DNA from: Dehalococcoidia bacterium
GTDB lineage: Bacteria > Chloroflexota > Dehalococcoidia > Lucifugimonadales > UBA1123
DNA length: 64,000 nt
Direction of reading: 5' to 3'
Assembly: GCA_034428835.1 (NCBI GenBank)
Contig: DAOUHG010000028.1
Location: 19,742-83,741, forward strand
The notes under the pieces were generated by a model. The model did no database searches. It was given only the letters and a program-made list of their open reading frames with translations, and was not told where the DNA came from. Both the position numbers and the translations under genes were made by a program. This document shows, piece after piece, positions 1,707 to 45,278 of this stretch (position 1 is its first letter; the number at the start of each line of letters is the position of its first letter).

Positions 1707-2642
1707 TTACCCGGCGCTCGCCATGACCTCCACCAACTCCCGAACCGCCTCGGCCGAGTTCTCCAACGCCGCCTGTTCGTCGTTGGTCAGATCGAACTCG
1801 ATGATCTCCTCGATTCCCGCGCCGCCAAGTCGCAGCGGCACGCCGACGAACAGCCCGTCGATTCCGTACTCGCCTTCGAGGTAAGCGGTGCAGGGGAGTA
1901 TCTCCTGCCTGTCGAACAGGATCGCCTCGACCATCTGCATGATCGCCGCTGACGGCGCGTAGTATGCGCTTCCCGTCTTGAGGAGGTTGACTATCTCAGC
2001 GCCCCCGTCCTGGGTGCGCTTAACTATCTCGGCGATCCGCTCTTCCGACAGCACCTGCGCGATCTGCCTACCGCCGACCGTAGTGCTTGCCGTCACCGGG
2101 ACCATCGTGTCGCCGTGACCTCCGAGTACGTATGCTTCCACGGAGTTCACCGACACGTTGAGCTCCTCAGCAAGAAACGTCCGGAACCGCGCGGTGTCCA
2201 GAATCCCTGCCATGCCTACGACTCTCTCCTTGGGGAAGCCGCTCACCTGAAACGCCCTCTGAGCCATCGCGTCAAGTGGGTTTGTCACGATTACGAGTAT
2301 CGAACCGGGTGATGCCGCAACCACCGATTCGGTCACCGACGTCACGATGTTCATGTTCGTGAGCAGCAGGTCGTCTCGGCTCATGCCAGGTCGACGTGCA
2401 ATGCCCGACGTTATAACGACCACATCCGATCCCGCCGTGTCGGCATAATCATTCGTGCCGACCACCTTGGCGTCCGTGCCCAATACAGGACCGGACTCAA
2501 GCATGTCCAGAGCCTTGCCCTGTGGCAGGCCCTCTACGATATCGACCAGCACCACGTCTGCGTAGCCCCTGTCATATATGCGCTGGGCGGCTGTCGCGCC
2601 GACGTTGCCCGCGCCAACGATTGTCACCTTGCTCCTTGCCAT
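1707..2642 (-). CDS. mdh: malate dehydrogenase (LDH-like type)
   Basis: 311 aa. Rossmann motif [10 protein letters not shown], then [17 protein letters not shown] and GGHGDTMVP, typical of LDH-like MDH. Confidence 0.9.
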
Positions 2643-2683
2643 CTATTCGAACCTCCGGCGCGTCCGCGCCTCTCTTACGTCTG

Positions 2684-2717
2684 AAGGGGGCGGGTCACAA
2701 GTCGTACCCGCCCCCTT
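2684..2717 (-). terminator. 12-bp GC-rich stem-loop between icd and mdh (no clear U-tract)
   Basis: aagggggcgggt (2684-2695) pairs with acccgccccctt (2706-2717) around a 10-nt loop. It sits in the 115-nt icd-mdh spacer. It could be an attenuator or RNA-stability element rather than a true terminator. Confidence 0.3.
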
Positions 2718-2757
2718 TACCTTAACTGCCTAAACCGCTTCGAGCCTCGGCCGCTGC

Positions 2758-3966
2758 TTAACTGCCTGCTTCGACGTACTCCTGCCACCGGTCCTCGATG
2801 GTCGAGTCGGCCACGGTTTCCATCAGGTATCGTCCGAACTCCGCGCTTGTCGCGCCGGTATCGCGGCCGGTCATCACTATCTTGCGTTCGTACTGCCCAC
2901 AGACGTCGATCGCCTTGTGCAGTCGGGCGCCAATGTCAGTGTAGCCGATGTGCTCCAGCATCATCGCGCCGGCGCGCAGCAGCGAGCTGGGATCGGCGAA
3001 TTGGGCGCGTCCCGTCCTGACCATCCGCGGCGCGCTGCCGTGAATTGCCTCGAACATCGCGTACTGCTTGCCGACGTTCGCGCTCCCGGCCGTGCCGACC
3101 CCGCCCTGTATCTGCGCCGCCTCGTCGGTGAGTATGTCACCATACAGGTTGGGCAGAGCCAGGACCTGGAAGTCCTTCTGACGGGCCGGGTTTATCAGCG
3201 CGGCCGTCATGATGTCGATGTACCAGCCTTCCCACTCGATACCGGGGTAGTTCTCCGAGACCTCTCGGGCCATGTCCAGGAACTTGCCGTCGGTGGTCTT
3301 GACGATGTTCGCCTTTGTGACGATAGTCACGCTGTCTTTGCCGGTCCGCTGCGCATGTGCGAACGCCGCGTCGATGATCCGCCTTGATCCCTGCGAAGTT
3401 ATCACCCGGAAATCCATGCCCAGGTCTTCTGTGACGTGGATCCCCTGGCTTCCCACCGCGTACATGTCCTCGGTGTTCTCTCGGAAGAATGTCCAGTCGA
3501 TGCCCTGAGAAGGGATCCGGACAGGCCTGATATTCGCGAACAGATCGAGCTCCTTGCGCATCGACACGTTTGCGCTCTCTATGTTCGGCCACCCGTCGCC
3601 CTGCTCGGGTGTGTGGGTCGGTCCCTTCAGCGTTACGTGGCACTTTTTGATCTCGGCCAACACGTCGTCAGGGATGGACTGCATCTTCTCTGCGCGGTTC
3701 TCGATTGTCAGGCCGTCGATGACCCTGAACTCGACTTTGCCGGAATCAACCTCGCCCCGCAGCAAGTGCTCCAGGACTGTCTGCGTTTCGGCACTGATCG
3801 ACGGACCGATCCCGTCGCCGCCGAGCATCCCGACGACAATGGGAGATATGGAGGAATAGTCTACCCAATCGGGCTCGTTCTTGAGGCGCTCCACCCGCTC
3901 CAGCTGCTGCGCCACAACCTTGCCGAAGTGTTCTTTGGCGGCCTCTATGATCTGATTGTCAGCCAC
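2758..3966 (-). CDS. icd: isocitrate dehydrogenase (isocitrate/isopropylmalate dehydrogenase family)
   Basis: 402 aa with GDGIGPSI and NLYGDILTDEAAQIQGGVGTAGSANVG. Size and the mdh neighbour favour NADP-IDH, but substrate cannot be proven by eye. Confidence 0.75.
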   Translation of the reverse strand: MADNQIIEAAKEHFGKVVAQQLERVERLKNEPDWVDYSSISPIVVGMLGGDGIGPSISAETQTVLEHLLRGEVDSGKVEFRVIDGLTIENRAEKMQSIPDDVLAEIKKCHVTLKGPTHTPEQGDGWPNIESANVSMRKELDLFANIRPVRIPSQGIDWTFFRENTEDMYAVGSQGIHVTEDLGMDFRVITSQGSRRIIDAAFAHAQRTGKDSVTIVTKANIVKTTDGKFLDMAREVSENYPGIEWEGWYIDIMTAALINPARQKDFQVLALPNLYGDILTDEAAQIQGGVGTAGSANVGKQYAMFEAIHGSAPRMVRTGRAQFADPSSLLRAGAMMLEHIGYTDIGARLHKAIDVCGQYERKIVMTGRDTGATSAEFGRYLMETVADSTIEDRWQEYVEAGS

Positions 3967-42324: not shown

Positions 42325-42400
42325 TGGTACCCCTGCCCGGACTCGAACCGGGGCACCCGGTTTAGGAAACCGGTGCTCTATCCTCCTGAGCTACAGGGGC
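42325..42400 (-). tRNA. tRNA-Arg (anticodon CCT), CCA encoded
   Basis: Hand fold: GCCCCTG TA GCTC AGGAGGATA GAGC A CCGGT TT-CCT-AA ACCGG GTGC CCCGG TTCGAGT CCGGG CAGGGGT A CCA. Confidence 0.85.
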
Positions 42401-42630
42401 ACGTGGACTGTGAGCGTTCAGGGCCGTGAGTACGACCACACGAAAATTCTGACAGGGGCCGGCGCTCCGTGTCAACACACGAGCTTGGTTCGAGCCTGTC
42501 CCATATTAGTAGGCGCCACCAGTCCAGACCTTGTCCTAAGGCCGCAAGGGTTGCCCTGCGCCTACTAAATTGACGCAGGGCCTGACCTTGAGGAGTAGCG
42601 ACGGTCCGCGAACCTCCTCATAGGGCCGCC

Positions 42631-42873
42631 TTCCGGGGACTTCGAGGACCTTCGAGACCTTTTTCGGTCGTCTGAAAAAAGAGTTAGCCACCAATGGCGG
42701 CGCTCAGAGGGCGACTTCCGGGGACTTCGAGGACTTTCGAGACCTTTTTCGGTCGCCTGAAAAAAGAGTTAGCCACCAACGGCGGCGCTCAGGGGTCGGC
42801 TTCCGGGGACTTCGGGGACCTTCGAGACCTTTTTCGGCCTGCGAAAAATAATTCAGCCGCGAATCGCGTTCAG
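42631..42873 (+). repeat. 85-bp tandem repeat array, left (forward) arm, about 3 copies
   Basis: The unit ttccggggacttcgaggaccttcgagacctttttcggtcg(t/c)ctgaaaaaagagttagccaccaa(t/c)ggcggcgctcag... starts at 42631, 42716 and 42801. Copies 1 and 2 differ at 6 of 85 positions by my alignment. Copy 3 is diverged, and a partial copy precedes 42631. Confidence 0.9.
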
Positions 42874-42900
42874 TAGGGACAACTCGCTGAGCGTCCCTAC
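42873..42900. repeat. hairpin gtagggac-N12-gtccctac
   Basis: Perfect 8-bp inverted repeat read directly, immediately after the left repeat array. Confidence 0.6.
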
Positions 42901-43128
42901 TATCGGCGCAATTGCCTGGACCAGGACTTCAATCCATACCAGTCTGGTGTGAGGCCGTCATGTTTTCGCTGGCTGGAACCTGTATCAACTTGGTCGCTGA
43001 CCACGTCATTACGGGGAAAGTCGGAATACAGAGGGGGACTGGGGATGAAAACAACGGTGTTATCGAGGTCTTCAGGGCAATTGCATTCTCCCAACATGAA
43101 GTCGCAGAGCAATCTCAAACCCGTTCGC

Positions 43129-43147
43129 CCCCGGATCAAGTCCGGGG
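43129..43147. repeat. hairpin ccccgga-tcaag-tccgggg
   Basis: Perfect 7-bp stem with a 5-nt loop inside the non-coding mosaic. Confidence 0.5.
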
Positions 43148-43240
43148 CAGGCTCTGAGCTTGTCGAAGGGCCGTTCATGGGTCGACAGACTCACCACGAA
43201 CGGACTTATACCAATTCGCTTTGACTACGCCACAAACCTA

Positions 43241-43384
43241 CCATGACACACAGGGTCTTTCGATTATCTTTCTAGCCTGTTCCCATATTGTCATGCTGAG
43301 CTTGCCGAAGCATCTGGTCAGCAGACCCTTCGCTCCTCTCAGGGTGACAGATTGGGGATAACCGAAAGACCCTGCCATGACACA
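43241..43384. mobile_element. MITE-like element: 124-bp imperfect palindrome with 12-bp TIRs and 10-bp flanking direct repeats
   Basis: Direct repeat ccatgacaca at 43241-43250 and 43375-43384. TIR cagggtctttcg (43251-43262) and cgaaagaccctg (43363-43374). The interior holds two opposed REP-type units (gtcatgctgagcttgccgaagcatc and gacccttcgctcctctcagggtgac). Confidence 0.5.
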
Positions 43385-43407
43385 TTCTCATGCGTAGATC
43401 CCCGTCC

Positions 43408-43434
43408 GTCATTCCCGCGAAAGCGGGAATCCAT
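43408..43434. repeat. REP-like hairpin, copy 2 (gtcATTCCCGC-gaaa-GCGGGAATccat)
   Basis: 8-bp stem (43411-43418 with 43423-43430) and a GAAA tetraloop. Confidence 0.65.
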
Positions 43435-43584
43435 CGACCCGGGTGAGGGAGAATACGGTGTAATCATCCATAATTGGTATTATTAGAGAATGCGATTGCC
43501 CTGCCGATGTCTTCGACTAAACTGGTACAGCTTCCGCTGGCTGCCCCCAATGGATTTCCGCCCCGTATCGGAGTATCGGGTAAC

Positions 43585-43737
43585 GTCCTCTAGCGGCTAA
43601 ACTTTTTTTGAGGCGACCGAAAAAGGTCTCCGAAGTCCTCGAAGGTCCCCGGAAGTTGCCTTCTGAGCGCCGCCATTGGTGGCTAACGTTTTTTTGAGGC
43701 GACCGAAAAAGGTCTCGAAGTCCTCGAAGTCCCGGCG
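43585..43737 (-). repeat. 85-86-bp tandem repeat array, right (inverted) arm, about 2 copies
   Basis: The reverse complement reads ...gccgggacttcgaggacttcgagacctttttcggtcgcctcaaaaaaacgttagccaccaatggcggcgctcagaaggcaac ttccggggaccttcgaggacttcggagacctttttcggtcgcctcaaaaaaagtttagcc..., the same unit as 42631-42873 on the other strand. Confidence 0.9.
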
Positions 43738-43822
43738 AAACGACTCTGTATAGGCTGTTCTCGAACCGCAAACCTGTCCCAGGTTGGTAGGTGAGCTCTG
43801 CGATGGCTGCCTCACTACCCCT

Positions 43823-43891: not shown

Positions 43892-44662
43892 TCAGACCGA
43901 CCCCGCCCGTCGCGTGAACTCGGCGCTACGAATGTCGCGCTCGACGATCGAGCGGATGTACCGTGAGGTGATGCGCTCCACTTCGTTACGCAGATTGTCG
44001 CCGAGCGTAGGTTCGCCGATTCCATCGACTGCCACATTGCGTTGGAAGTGCCTGAGAACGCGCATGGCAGACTCTGACACCGGAACCTTGTGCCCGATAC
44101 CCAGTGCCCGGCAATCGGGACACAGCACTCCACCGGCCGCAAGGTCGAGAACGTGGTCTCCCGGCTCCACGGCTGCATCGCACTCCACGCAGTTTTCCAG
44201 CTGTGGACGGAACCCGGTTACGTCGAGTACGCGTAGCTCGTACCATCTGCCCACAAGCCAGGGGTCGGTGGTGTCTTCAAGCGCTTCCAGCGTCTCAGTA
44301 ACCAGCGCGAAAAGCGAACGACTCGGATATCTCTCCTGTGAGAACAGGTCTGCGACCTCACAGACATAGATCGAGTGAGACAGACGGGCCAGGTCTTCCC
44401 GAGCGGCCGGGTGGTCGTCGCGCAGCGCCGCCTCAGTGATGACGTCGAGATTTCGCCCGTATGCTGCGGCGAAGTCCACAACGTTGGTGAGGTCCAGGTG
44501 GCCTCGCAGACGCCCGTTGGGGCGGCGAACGCCTTTGGCAACCGCCCTTACTTTCCCCAAGTCTGGAGTGAGAATCGAAACGATGCGGTCCGCTTCCCCT
44601 AGAGGGTACTGTCGCAGGACCACTCCGCTTGTCCTGTACGTCCGCGACCTCACTCGACTCAT
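43892..44662 (-). CDS. recO: DNA repair protein RecO
   Basis: Start set at ATG 44662, 4 nt after the recR stop. YRTSGVVLRQYPLGEADRIVSILTPDLGKVRAVAKGVRR OB-fold N-terminus and Cys4 zinc motif CVECD...CPDC. Confidence 0.85.
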   Translation of the reverse strand: MSRVRSRTYRTSGVVLRQYPLGEADRIVSILTPDLGKVRAVAKGVRRPNGRLRGHLDLTNVVDFAAAYGRNLDVITEAALRDDHPAAREDLARLSHSIYVCEVADLFSQERYPSRSLFALVTETLEALEDTTDPWLVGRWYELRVLDVTGFRPQLENCVECDAAVEPGDHVLDLAAGGVLCPDCRALGIGHKVPVSESAMRVLRHFQRNVAVDGIGEPTLGDNLRNEVERITSRYIRSIVERDIRSAEFTRRAGSV

Positions 44663-44666
44663 GCTG

Positions 44667-45278
44667 TCAGAAGACCTGCCTACCCTCGATCGCGCGGACA
44701 AGGGTTGACTGGTCGGCGTACTCCAGGTCACCTCCGACCGGGAGACCCCGCGCCGGCCGTGTGATCGACATTCCCAGTGGGGAGATCAGGCCGTGGATGT
44801 ACATGGCAGTGGCGTCGCCCTCTACGTTGGGGTTGGTTGCGAGTATGATCTCCTGGACTGGCTCATTGGACAGTCGCCTGAGTAGTGGCTGTATCCTCAA
44901 ATCGTCGGGGCCAATGCCGTTCATCGGTGAGATCGCGCCATGCAGCACGTGATACAGTCCTCGGTAGGAATGTGTGCGCTCGAGGGCATGCACGTCAAGC
45001 GCCTCTTCCACAACGCATATCCGCTGAGGGTCGCGACCCGGATCAGCGCAGATGTCACAGAGGTCATCCTCGGTGAGATTGAAGCACCGAGAACACATTG
45101 CGACACTTTCCTTGACCCCGATGATCGCCGCCGCTAGATCGTGGGCGTGCTGTTCCGGCATCCGGATCAGGTGGAACGCCAGCCGCTGAGCTGACTTAGG
45201 CCCGATGCCGGGCAGCTTGCTGAACTCCTCTATCAGCCTTGCGATAGGCGCGACCGAATATACGACCGGACTTGTCAT
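44667..45278 (-). CDS. recR: recombination protein RecR
   Basis: 203 aa, LPGIGPKSAQRLAFHL HhH, zinc finger CSRCFNLTEDDLCDIC, Toprim region. Confidence 0.9.
   Translation of the reverse strand: MTSPVVYSVAPIARLIEEFSKLPGIGPKSAQRLAFHLIRMPEQHAHDLAAAIIGVKESVAMCSRCFNLTEDDLCDICADPGRDPQRICVVEEALDVHALERTHSYRGLYHVLHGAISPMNGIGPDDLRIQPLLRRLSNEPVQEIILATNPNVEGDATAMYIHGLISPLGMSITRPARGLPVGGDLEYADQSTLVRAIEGRQVF

What the first reader, a model, noticed from the sequence alone, without database searches (positions are those of the whole stretch)
43241..43384. MITE-like 124-bp element with perfect 12-bp terminal inverted repeats and a 10-bp target-site-like duplication
Seen: the layout reads ccatgacaca | cagggtctttcg ...100 bp... 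cgaaagaccctg | ccatgacaca. Coordinates are 43241-50, 43251-62, 43363-74 and 43375-84. The interior is itself an imperfect palindrome built from two opposed REP-type units (gtcaNNctgagN5cgaagNNtc).

Established: TIRs flanked by a direct duplication are the signature of transposase-mediated insertion of a non-autonomous element.

Inference: this is a small mobile hairpin element whose transposase is encoded elsewhere. A 10-bp duplication is on the long side for common IS families.
Basis: partly seen in the sequence, partly recalled or inferred. Interest (0 to 1): 0.6.

Follow-up and report, generated by a model that had tools for sequence, protein, structure and literature searches.

The report
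ISAs1-type MITE nested in repeats
The 124-base element is a real miniature, gene-less transposon that uses the end sequences and 10-base target duplication of the ISAs1 insertion-sequence family; this is an ordinary kind of selfish DNA, but I found no published description of this family in marine and sponge-associated Dehalococcoidia.

Summary
CAGGGTCTTTCG (43251-62) and its reverse complement (43363-74) bound a 124-bp element flanked by ccatgacaca on both sides.

The MITE interpretation is supported.
- The same ends bound 109-138-bp elements at 82 sites in 35 Chloroflexota (Dehalococcoidia/SAR202) genomes.
- Of 80 copies analysed, 33 have a perfect 9- or 10-bp flanking duplication and 22 more have 1-2 mismatches. 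The duplicated sequences differ between sites. Unrelated flank pairs match this well in 0.16% of cases.
- A 1191-bp ISAs1-family insertion sequence (NF033564) in a related MAG has the same ends: 20 nt at one end, 17 at the other. It has 11 copies and 10-bp duplications.
- The literature gives ISAs1 as "IR starting CAGGG, 10-bp DR", which explains the long duplication.
- An unfilled site with a single ccatgacaca exists in another Dehalococcoidia MAG and in sponge metagenome contigs.

The element sits in a 139-bp repeat, which sits in a second, older ISAs1-type MITE (43073-43503). The interior is a pair of hairpin units that also occur without the ends.

Verdict: real, ordinary mechanism, new member of a known kind.

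The parts
43251..43374 (.). MITE-A: 124-bp non-autonomous ISAs1-type element (the finding)
   Evidence: Sequence. Family of TIR-bounded copies. Identical copy at the orthologous site of a 92-96% identical relative (L001:5795-5918).
43241..43250 (.). Left copy of the 10-bp target-site duplication ccatgacaca
   Evidence: A single copy is present in the unfilled site of L098.
43375..43384 (.). Right copy of the 10-bp target-site duplication ccatgacaca
   Evidence: The joint 43240->43375 (skips 134, 10 letters fit either side) appears in contigs of X5, X6 and X7.
43251..43268 (+). Left terminal inverted repeat CAGGGTCTTTCGATTATC
   Evidence: pair I13 (18 nt, 94%). Only about 17 nt (CAGGGTCTTTCGRTTRT) are conserved across the family. 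It matches the IS end CAGGGTCTTTCGGTTATTTG.
43357..43374 (-). Right terminal inverted repeat (reverse complement CAGGGTCTTTCGGTTATC)
   Evidence: pair I13. It is identical to the IS end over its first 17 nt.
43290..43314 (+). Interior hairpin unit 1: GTCATGCTGAGCTTGCCGAAGCATC (stem ATGC/GCAT around TGAG-N5-CGAA)
43324..43348 (-). Interior hairpin unit 2: GTCACCCTGAGAGGAGCGAAGGGTC (stem ACCC/GGGT around TGAG-N5-CGAA)
   Evidence: The same two-unit module occurs without the TIRs in L099 and L100.
43208..43480 (.). Element C: 139-bp repeat (without MITE-A) with ends ATACCAATT...AATTGGTAT. It is the DNA into which MITE-A inserted, and it contains the very abundant motif GTCATTCCCGCGAAAGCGGGAATCC.
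   Evidence: pair I12. A copy about 97% identical, lacking MITE-A, lies at an unrelated locus in L098. Summed contig depth is very high over 43396-43457.
43073..43503 (.). MITE-B: older ISAs1-type MITE (TIR CAGGGCAATTGCATTCTC / GAGAATGCGATTGCCCTG) that contains element C and MITE-A. Its flanks tcgaggtctt / ccgatgtctt match at 8 of 10 positions.
   Evidence: pair I11. In L001 the same element has a perfect 18-nt TIR and a perfect 10-bp TSD tcgaggtctt.

Best explanation
Window 43251-43374 is a miniature inverted-repeat transposable element (MITE) of the ISAs1 insertion-sequence family.

Its roughly 17-18-nt ends (CAGGGTCTTTCGRTTATC) are the sites that an ISAs1-family DDE transposase, made elsewhere, binds and cleaves. 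Integration through cuts staggered by 10 bp, followed by repair, duplicated the target ccatgacaca.

The element encodes nothing. Its interior is not derived from the IS. It is a pair of opposed hairpin units (stem-TGAG-N5-CGAA-stem') that also exist free-standing.

The copy landed inside a 139-bp repeat (element C). That repeat lies inside an older ISAs1-type MITE with different ends (MITE-B). The whole stack sits in the repeat mosaic between recO and tRNA-Arg(CCT).

Shown:
- family membership
- variable 9-10-bp duplications
- an unfilled site
- a full-length ISAs1 element with the same ends, the same duplication length and the same flanking target bias

Inferred:
- mobilisation in trans by that kind of transposase
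- the insertion predates the split from the 92-96% identical relative that carries the same insertion

Unknown: whether this genome still encodes a matching transposase.
For: Family and duplications:
- The pattern TIR-N85-115-TIR finds 84 loci. Of these, 81 are in 35 Dehalococcoidia/SAR202/Chloroflexi genomes.
- Only the terminal ~17 nt are shared. The interiors fall into many unrelated subfamilies.
- Of 80 copies, 25 have a perfect 10-bp flanking repeat, 8 a perfect 9-bp one, and 22 have 1-2 mismatches. All differ in sequence. Unrelated flank pairs reach <=2 mismatches in 0.16% of cases.

Autonomous partner:
- L051:2657-3847 is a 1191-bp element bounded by CAGGGTCTTTCGGTTATTT... It encodes an ISAs1-family transposase: NF033564 at 163.5 and 63.9 bits on the two pieces, plus PF13808 and PF01609.
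- It has 11 near-identical copies in one MAG. Five have perfect 10-bp TSDs. The others have flanks swapped between copies, as IS-IS recombination would produce.
- MITEs in that genome share 20 nt of the left end and 17 nt of the right end with the IS.
- MITE flanks and IS flanks share the same bias, TTG at positions 19-21 outward from the end.

Empty site:
- L098 carries element C with a single ccatgacaca.
- Contigs of X5, X6 and X7 join 43240 to 43375.

Literature:
- ISArsp11 is an ISAs1 element of 1306 bp with IR CAGGGCTGATGCAAAGTCG and a 10-bp DR (PMC6305408).
Against: - Only one copy lies in the window. Only one perfect-TIR copy lies in the closest reference genome, CBDCEF01.
- No ISAs1 transposase is encoded in the 64-kb window.
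- The 1191-bp IS is not present at >=85% identity in the runs that best hold this locus. Only short conserved patches of diverged relatives appear.
- 25 of 80 copies show no recognisable duplication. I traced only a few of these to other causes, namely a composite, tandem stacking, and 8- and 12-bp repeats.
- The empty site is paralogous, not orthologous.
- No transposition was observed.
Confidence: 0.93

Rival explanations
1. The element is a REP/BIME-type palindromic element spread by a RAYT (TnpA-REP, HUH) enzyme or by replication slippage, not by a DDE transposase. The flanking repeat would be incidental.
For: The interior is built from two REP-like hairpin units with covarying stems. The same two-unit module occurs without the CAGGG ends in metagenome contigs L099 and L100. 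25 of 80 copies lack a recognisable duplication.
Against: 55 of 80 copies carry 9-10-bp duplications of different sequence, against 0.16% in controls. The conserved part is the ends, not the interior. The ends are identical to those of an ISAs1 IS that makes the same duplication. An unfilled site has exactly one copy of the 10-mer.
Confidence: 0.03
2. The element is a MITE that has been taken over for a host function at this locus. It would act as a structured RNA, a terminator or a protein-binding hairpin between recO and tRNA-Arg, and be kept by selection.
For: The fold is strong (z = -5.5). All 144 nt, TSDs included, are identical between the window and the 92-96% identical relative L001, while nearby repeat DNA differs. 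The hairpin stems covary across copies.
Against: No Rfam family matches at E <= 1. By my count, substitutions in the adjacent mosaic run at about 2%, so zero changes in 144 nt is not significant (P about 0.05). Interiors differ completely between subfamilies. The metatranscriptome contigs of X7 give no clear coverage of the element.
Confidence: 0.06
3. The element is a MITE of another IS family that also makes 9-10-bp duplications, such as IS4 or IS1.
For: A duplication length of 9-10 bp is not unique to ISAs1. This rests on my own knowledge of IS4-family elements.
Against: The ends start with CAGGG and match an NF033564 (ISAs1) element over 17-20 nt. IS701 scores only 23.6 bits against a cut-off of 150.
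Confidence: 0.01

Closest known systems
ISAs1-family insertion sequences (ISAs1 of Aeromonas salmonicida; ISArsp11; Frankia Francci3_2330/2941)
   Same: The terminal inverted repeat starts with CAGGG and lies within the 14-22-bp range. The target duplication is 10 bp (PMC11946415; PMC6305408). The full-length partner found here encodes an NF033564 transposase in a 1191-bp element.
   Different: The window element is 124 bp with no transposase. Its interior is unrelated to the IS interior. All 11 copies of the partner IS split the transposase into two frames at CAAAAAGGGGGG. From memory, ISAs1 elements normally have a single ORF; I did not check this.
Bacterial IS-derived MITEs (e.g. Correia/NEMIS of Neisseria; MaeMITEa-h of Microcystis, PMC2779907)
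   Same: It is short and non-coding, with TIRs, fixed-length TSDs, many copies, intergenic location, a palindromic foldable interior, and ends shared with an autonomous IS.
   Different: The parent family is ISAs1. I found no published MITE for that family in the searchable library. The subfamilies share only about 17 nt at each end and carry interchangeable hairpin modules.
REP/BIME elements
   Same: The interior units are short imperfect palindromes in opposed pairs with covarying stems. They also occur on their own.
   Different: The whole element has TIRs and TSDs and a DDE-transposase partner. No RAYT link was seen.

Membership tests
MITE (non-autonomous DDE-transposon derivative) | Short (under about 600 bp) and without coding capacity | tested here: met
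   The element is 124 bp. No ORF of 50 aa or more lies within 43251-43374.
MITE (non-autonomous DDE-transposon derivative) | Terminal inverted repeats | tested here: met
   The TIR is 12 of 12 perfect and 17 of 18 overall.
MITE (non-autonomous DDE-transposon derivative) | Target-site duplications of fixed length and varying sequence among copies | tested here: met
   25 copies have a perfect 10-bp TSD, 8 a perfect 9-bp TSD, and 22 are near-perfect, out of 80. The control rate is 0.16%.
MITE (non-autonomous DDE-transposon derivative) | Multiple copies in a genome | tested here: inconclusive
   Several related genomes carry 6 to 12 or more copies, for example OZ244564.1, CBDANP01, MPMM01 and OZ242258.1. 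The window holds one copy, and the nearest reference genome holds one perfect-TIR copy.
MITE (non-autonomous DDE-transposon derivative) | Ends shared with a transposase-encoding element | tested here: met
   The 1191-bp IS in CBDANP01 has ends CAGGGTCTTTCGGTTATTTG... and ...ATAACCGAAAGACCCTG. A second IS with the same end lies next to a MITE in L034.
MITE (non-autonomous DDE-transposon derivative) | Unfilled (empty) site with one copy of the duplicated target | tested here: met
   L098 has the host repeat with a single ccatgacaca. Contig joints in X5, X6 and X7 show the same. This is a paralogous site; an orthologous empty site was not found.
ISAs1 family (as source of the ends) | IR of 14-22 bp beginning with CAGGG | tested here: met
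   The definition is from PMC11946415.
ISAs1 family (as source of the ends) | Direct repeat of about 10 bp (8-10) | tested here: met
   The window copy has 10 bp. Across the family 10 bp is more frequent than 9 bp. The IS copies have 10 bp.
ISAs1 family (as source of the ends) | Partner element encodes an ISAs1-family transposase (NF033564; PF13808 + PF01609) | tested here: met
   The partner is in a related genome, not in the window.
ISAs1 family (as source of the ends) | Mobilisation of the MITE by that transposase | not testable with these tools
   This needs a transposition assay.
REP/BIME (RAYT-associated) | Copies lack target duplications and TIR-transposase pairing | tested here: not met
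   Duplications are present and the ends match a DDE IS.

The most novel reading that the evidence does not exclude
The CAGGGTCTTTCG clade of ISAs1 elements and their MITEs may choose targets by position rather than by the duplicated sequence. Two patterns point this way.

(a) There is a symmetric preference CAA-N8-[10-bp target]-N8-TTG. This often places the element end 17-19 bp upstream of a TTGACA -35 box of an outward-facing promoter.

(b) Insertion often occurs exactly one duplication-length from a resident CAGGG end. This builds stacks and MITE-flanked composites that can carry genes.

In addition, the MITE ends may serve as vehicles for a free-standing, covarying hairpin module (stem-TGAG-N5-CGAA-stem') that has a function of its own.
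Probability: 0.2. Interest if true: 0.55.

Novelty: new member of a known kind. Interest (0 to 1): 0.3.

Why it matters
- It explains a puzzling 1.3-kb gene-free mosaic as stacked selfish DNA. It also gives annotators a simple signature for a repeat family spread through sponge-associated and pelagic Dehalococcoidia: CAGGGTCTTTCGRTTRT ends plus a 9-10-bp duplication.
- ISAs1 is a poorly studied IS family. The natural copies collected here provide four usable facts: the minimal conserved end (about 17 nt), the distribution of duplication lengths, a shared target bias, and examples of stacking and composite formation.
- For this particular locus nothing suggests a host function.

Tried and rejected
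I could not count copies or look for a transposase in the window's own genome.
- The window has no second copy of the TIR, the 10-mer or the interior units and no ISAs1 transposase.
- A scan of genome contigs for TSD plus right flank gave only L001 (filled), L098 (unfilled) and two unrelated hits, L096 and L097.
- The single metagenome-contig scan, using the interior module, found no further TIR-bounded copies of this subfamily. It found only free-standing modules.
- Rfam gave no match at E <= 1.
- Laying the 1191-bp IS on runs X1, X5, X6 and X9 showed only short patches of diverged relatives. The transposase source in the host sample is therefore not identified.
- Three TIR-pattern hits outside Chloroflexota were set aside. 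These are L015 (Gammaproteobacteria), L055 (Streptomyces) and L079 (Mucilaginibacter). They share nothing beyond the 12-mer and have no TSD.
- I first took L001 for the window's own genome. It is a syntenic relative at 92-96% identity.
- Literature searches for ISAs1-derived MITEs or SAR202 MITEs returned no description. Absence from this library does not prove that none exists.

Full report
**Observation**

The layout is ccatgacaca (43241-50), CAGGGTCTTTCG (43251-62), 100 bp, CGAAAGACCCTG (43363-74), ccatgacaca (43375-84).

- The inverted repeat extends to 18 nt with one mismatch (pair I13).
- The two interior units match GTCANNCTGAGNNNNNCGAAGNNTC with no mismatch, against 0.05 expected.
- The 144 nt fold far better than shuffles, z = -5.5.
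- Inside the 64-kb window the element is single-copy.

The window's own genome could not be searched. Everything below on copy number comes from the public genome collection and from sequencing runs.

**It is a family**

A scan of 185,579 species genomes for CAGGGTCTTTCG-N85-115-CGAAAGACCCTG returned 84 loci.

- 81 of them lie in 35 Dehalococcoidia/SAR202/Chloroflexi MAGs. Several genomes carry six to a dozen copies.
- The record titles include SAR202-cluster, Lake Baikal and groundwater MAGs. One run holding the locus is labelled "sponge metagenome".
- Three hits in unrelated phyla share only the 12-mer and were set aside.
- The alignment shows that only about 17 nt at each end (CAGGGTCTTTCGRTTRT) are conserved. 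The interiors fall into many unrelated subfamilies built from different hairpin modules.

**Target-site duplications**

Of the 80 family copies with enough flank, the breakdown is:

| Flanking direct repeat | Copies |
|---|---|
| Perfect 10 bp | 25 |
| Perfect 9 bp | 8 |
| 9-10 bp with 1-2 mismatches | 22 |
| None recognisable | 25 |

- The duplicated sequences all differ.
- Pairing left and right flanks of different copies gives <=2 mismatches in 0.16% of cases.
- Some of the 25 without a duplication are explained in other ways. One has an 8-bp repeat and one a 12-bp repeat. One is a tandem stack that shares a target (L056). One pair belongs to a composite (see below).

**The autonomous partner**

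Among the fetched loci, L051:2657-3847 is a 1191-bp element bounded by CAGGGTCTTTCGGTTATTT... and ...AAATAACCGAAAGACACTG.

- It encodes an ISAs1-family transposase. NF033564 scores 63.9 and 163.5 bits on the two pieces, and PF13808 plus PF01609 also match.
- The same MAG (CBDANP01) holds 11 near-identical copies.
- Five copies have perfect 10-bp duplications. In the others the left flank of one copy equals the right flank of another, as expected after recombination between IS copies.
- MITEs in that genome share 20 nt of the left end and 17 nt of the right end with the IS, and nothing further in.
- A second IS has the same end and a transposase 55% identical to it over the last 40 residues. 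It abuts a MITE in L034.
[quoted passage not shown] ISArsp11 is an example: 1306 bp, IR CAGGGCTGATGCAAAGTCG, 10-bp DR (PMC6305408).

**Empty site**

- L098, from another Dehalococcoidia MAG, contains ATACCAATT...acctaccatgacacattctcatgcg...AATTGTAT. This is the 139 bp surrounding MITE-A in the window, about 97% identical, with a single ccatgacaca and unrelated outer flanks.
- Logan contigs of runs X5, X6 and X7 join 43240 to 43375. They skip 134 nt, and 8-10 letters fit on either side of the joint. Loose ends in X1 and X6 continue from 43250 into the right flank.
- Because the surrounding 139 bp is itself a repeat, these are paralogous unfilled sites.
- The filled form is present in X9, X15 and X19 and in L001.

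**Nesting and context**

L001 (CBDCEF01) is not the window's genome. It is a syntenic relative, 92-96% identical over 8 kb, and it carries the identical MITE and duplication at the same place.

The comparison exposes two more layers.

- *Element C (43208-43480).* This is the 139-bp repeat just described.
- *MITE-B (43073-43503).* It is bounded by CAGGGCAATTGCATTCTC / GAGAATGCGATTGCCCTG.
  - In L001 MITE-B has a perfect 18-nt TIR and a perfect 10-bp duplication, tcgaggtctt. In the window the duplication has decayed to 8 of 10.
  - Other short elements with this second kind of end exist. One example is L038:6008-6162, with a 9-bp duplication.
  - L075:7100 starts a transposase-bearing element with the same end.

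The stack lies in the repeat mosaic between recO (43892-44731, minus strand) and tRNA-Arg(CCT) (42325-42400, minus strand), next to ureA and ureB.

**Interior**

- Each unit is a hairpin of the form stem-TGAG-N5-CGAA-stem'. The stem letters covary: ATGC/GCAT, ACCC/GGGT, GCCC/GGGC, ATTC/GAAT, GTCC/GGAC and others.
- There are 36 such hairpins in the window plus loci, against none in shuffled sequence.
- The two-unit module of the window copy also occurs without any CAGGG ends in metagenome contigs L099 and L100.
- A related module sits in MITE-B.
- So the MITE consists of IS ends wrapped around a REP-like module, not a deleted IS.
- Rfam has no match.

**How it works**

The best-supported mechanism is trans-mobilisation by an ISAs1-family DDE transposase that recognises the roughly 17-20-nt ends and integrates with a 10-bp stagger.

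- One supporting detail is a shared target bias. Reading outward from the element end, positions 19-21 are TTG in 13-14 of 22 IS flanks. In MITE flanks T occurs in 69-71 of 160 and G in 60 of 160 at those positions.
- Whether the window's genome still has a matching transposase is unknown.
  - None lies in the window.
  - The 1191-bp IS is absent at >=85% identity from the runs that best hold this locus.

**Rivals**

- A REP/RAYT origin of the whole element is contradicted by the duplications and by the IS-identical ends.
- An exapted structural role cannot be excluded. It has no positive support beyond a strong fold and zero substitutions versus L001. Given about 2% substitution in the adjacent mosaic, zero changes in 144 nt is not significant (my count).

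**Comparison and novelty**

The element meets every sequence-based criterion of a MITE and of ISAs1-type ends. I found no published ISAs1-derived MITE, nor any MITE description for SAR202, in the searchable library.

Earlier unchecked notes of this scan report ISAs1-type MITEs in other Dehalococcoidia genomes, with stacking, promoter proximity and transposase recoding. My own data agree on those points, but the notes are not independent evidence.

Verdict: real, ordinary mechanism, new member of a known kind, modest interest.

Noticed in passing
window 43073-43503 (and L001:5641-6047): A second, older ISAs1-type MITE (TIR CAGGGCAATYGCATTCTC) encloses the finding. In the relative L001 it has a perfect 18-nt TIR and a perfect 10-bp TSD, tcgaggtctt. 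In the window the TSD is 8 of 10. A transposase-bearing element with the same end starts at L075:7100.
   Followed up: partly
window 43208-43480: A 139-bp repeat (ATACCAATT...AATTGGTAT) hosts the MITE. It contains GTCATTCCCGCGAAAGCGGGAATCC, whose summed contig depth in sponge metagenomes is in the tens to hundreds of thousands, against about 10-100 for unique flanks. A copy lies at an unrelated locus in L098. How it moves is unknown.
   Followed up: partly
window 42624-42878 and 43595-43750: Three tandem 85-bp units lie on the left and two inverted copies on the right (arms up to 92% complementary). They bracket the whole MITE stack.
   Followed up: no
window 42934-43010 and 43135-43158: The window has a 77-bp and a 24-bp insertion relative to the syntenic relative L001. 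The 24-mer contains a small hairpin, CCCGGATCAAGTCCGGG, and splits a hairpin module of MITE-B.
   Followed up: no
L085-L095, element positions 1995-3185 (slip site at element nt 487): All 11 copies of the 1191-bp ISAs1 element split the transposase into orfA (162 aa) and orfB (315 aa), with the frames meeting at CAAAAAGGGGGG. A -1 (or +2) shift restores a 377-aa protein that covers the whole NF033564 model. This could be programmed recoding, transcriptional slippage or a systematic homopolymer error.
   Followed up: partly
flanks of 80 MITE copies (L001-L084) and 11 IS copies (L085-L095): Reading outward from the element end, TTGAC starts at offset 17-19 in 21 of 160 MITE flanks, against about 0.5 expected. 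It is often followed 17 nt later by a -10-like hexamer, which makes an outward-facing promoter. IS flanks show TTG at the same positions. This implies a symmetric target preference, CAA-N8-[10]-N8-TTG.
   Followed up: partly
flanks of MITE copies, e.g. L056:3258-3534, L034:7707-7852, L086:1840-3185, L062:1334-1361: CAGGG starts at offset 9-10 beyond the element end in 12 of 160 flanks, against about 0.6 expected. Elements are often stacked end to end with another ISAs1-type end and share one target duplication.
   Followed up: partly
L071:6437 to L031:598 (contiguous on CBDCIS010000006.1): Two direct, nearly identical MITE copies (121 of 122) flank 1918 bp that encode a Peptidase_S15/PepX_C (CocE/NonD-type) hydrolase. 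The whole 2162 bp is flanked by a perfect 10-bp repeat, tgtgcacatg. This is a MITE-flanked composite transposon carrying a gene.
   Followed up: partly
L099:5320-5425 and L100:1885-1955: The two-unit hairpin module of the window's MITE occurs free-standing, without CAGGG ends, in two JGI metagenome contigs. In L099 it is nested inside another hairpin module (GTCATTGCGAGCGGAGCGAAGCAATC...GCAATGAC).
   Followed up: no
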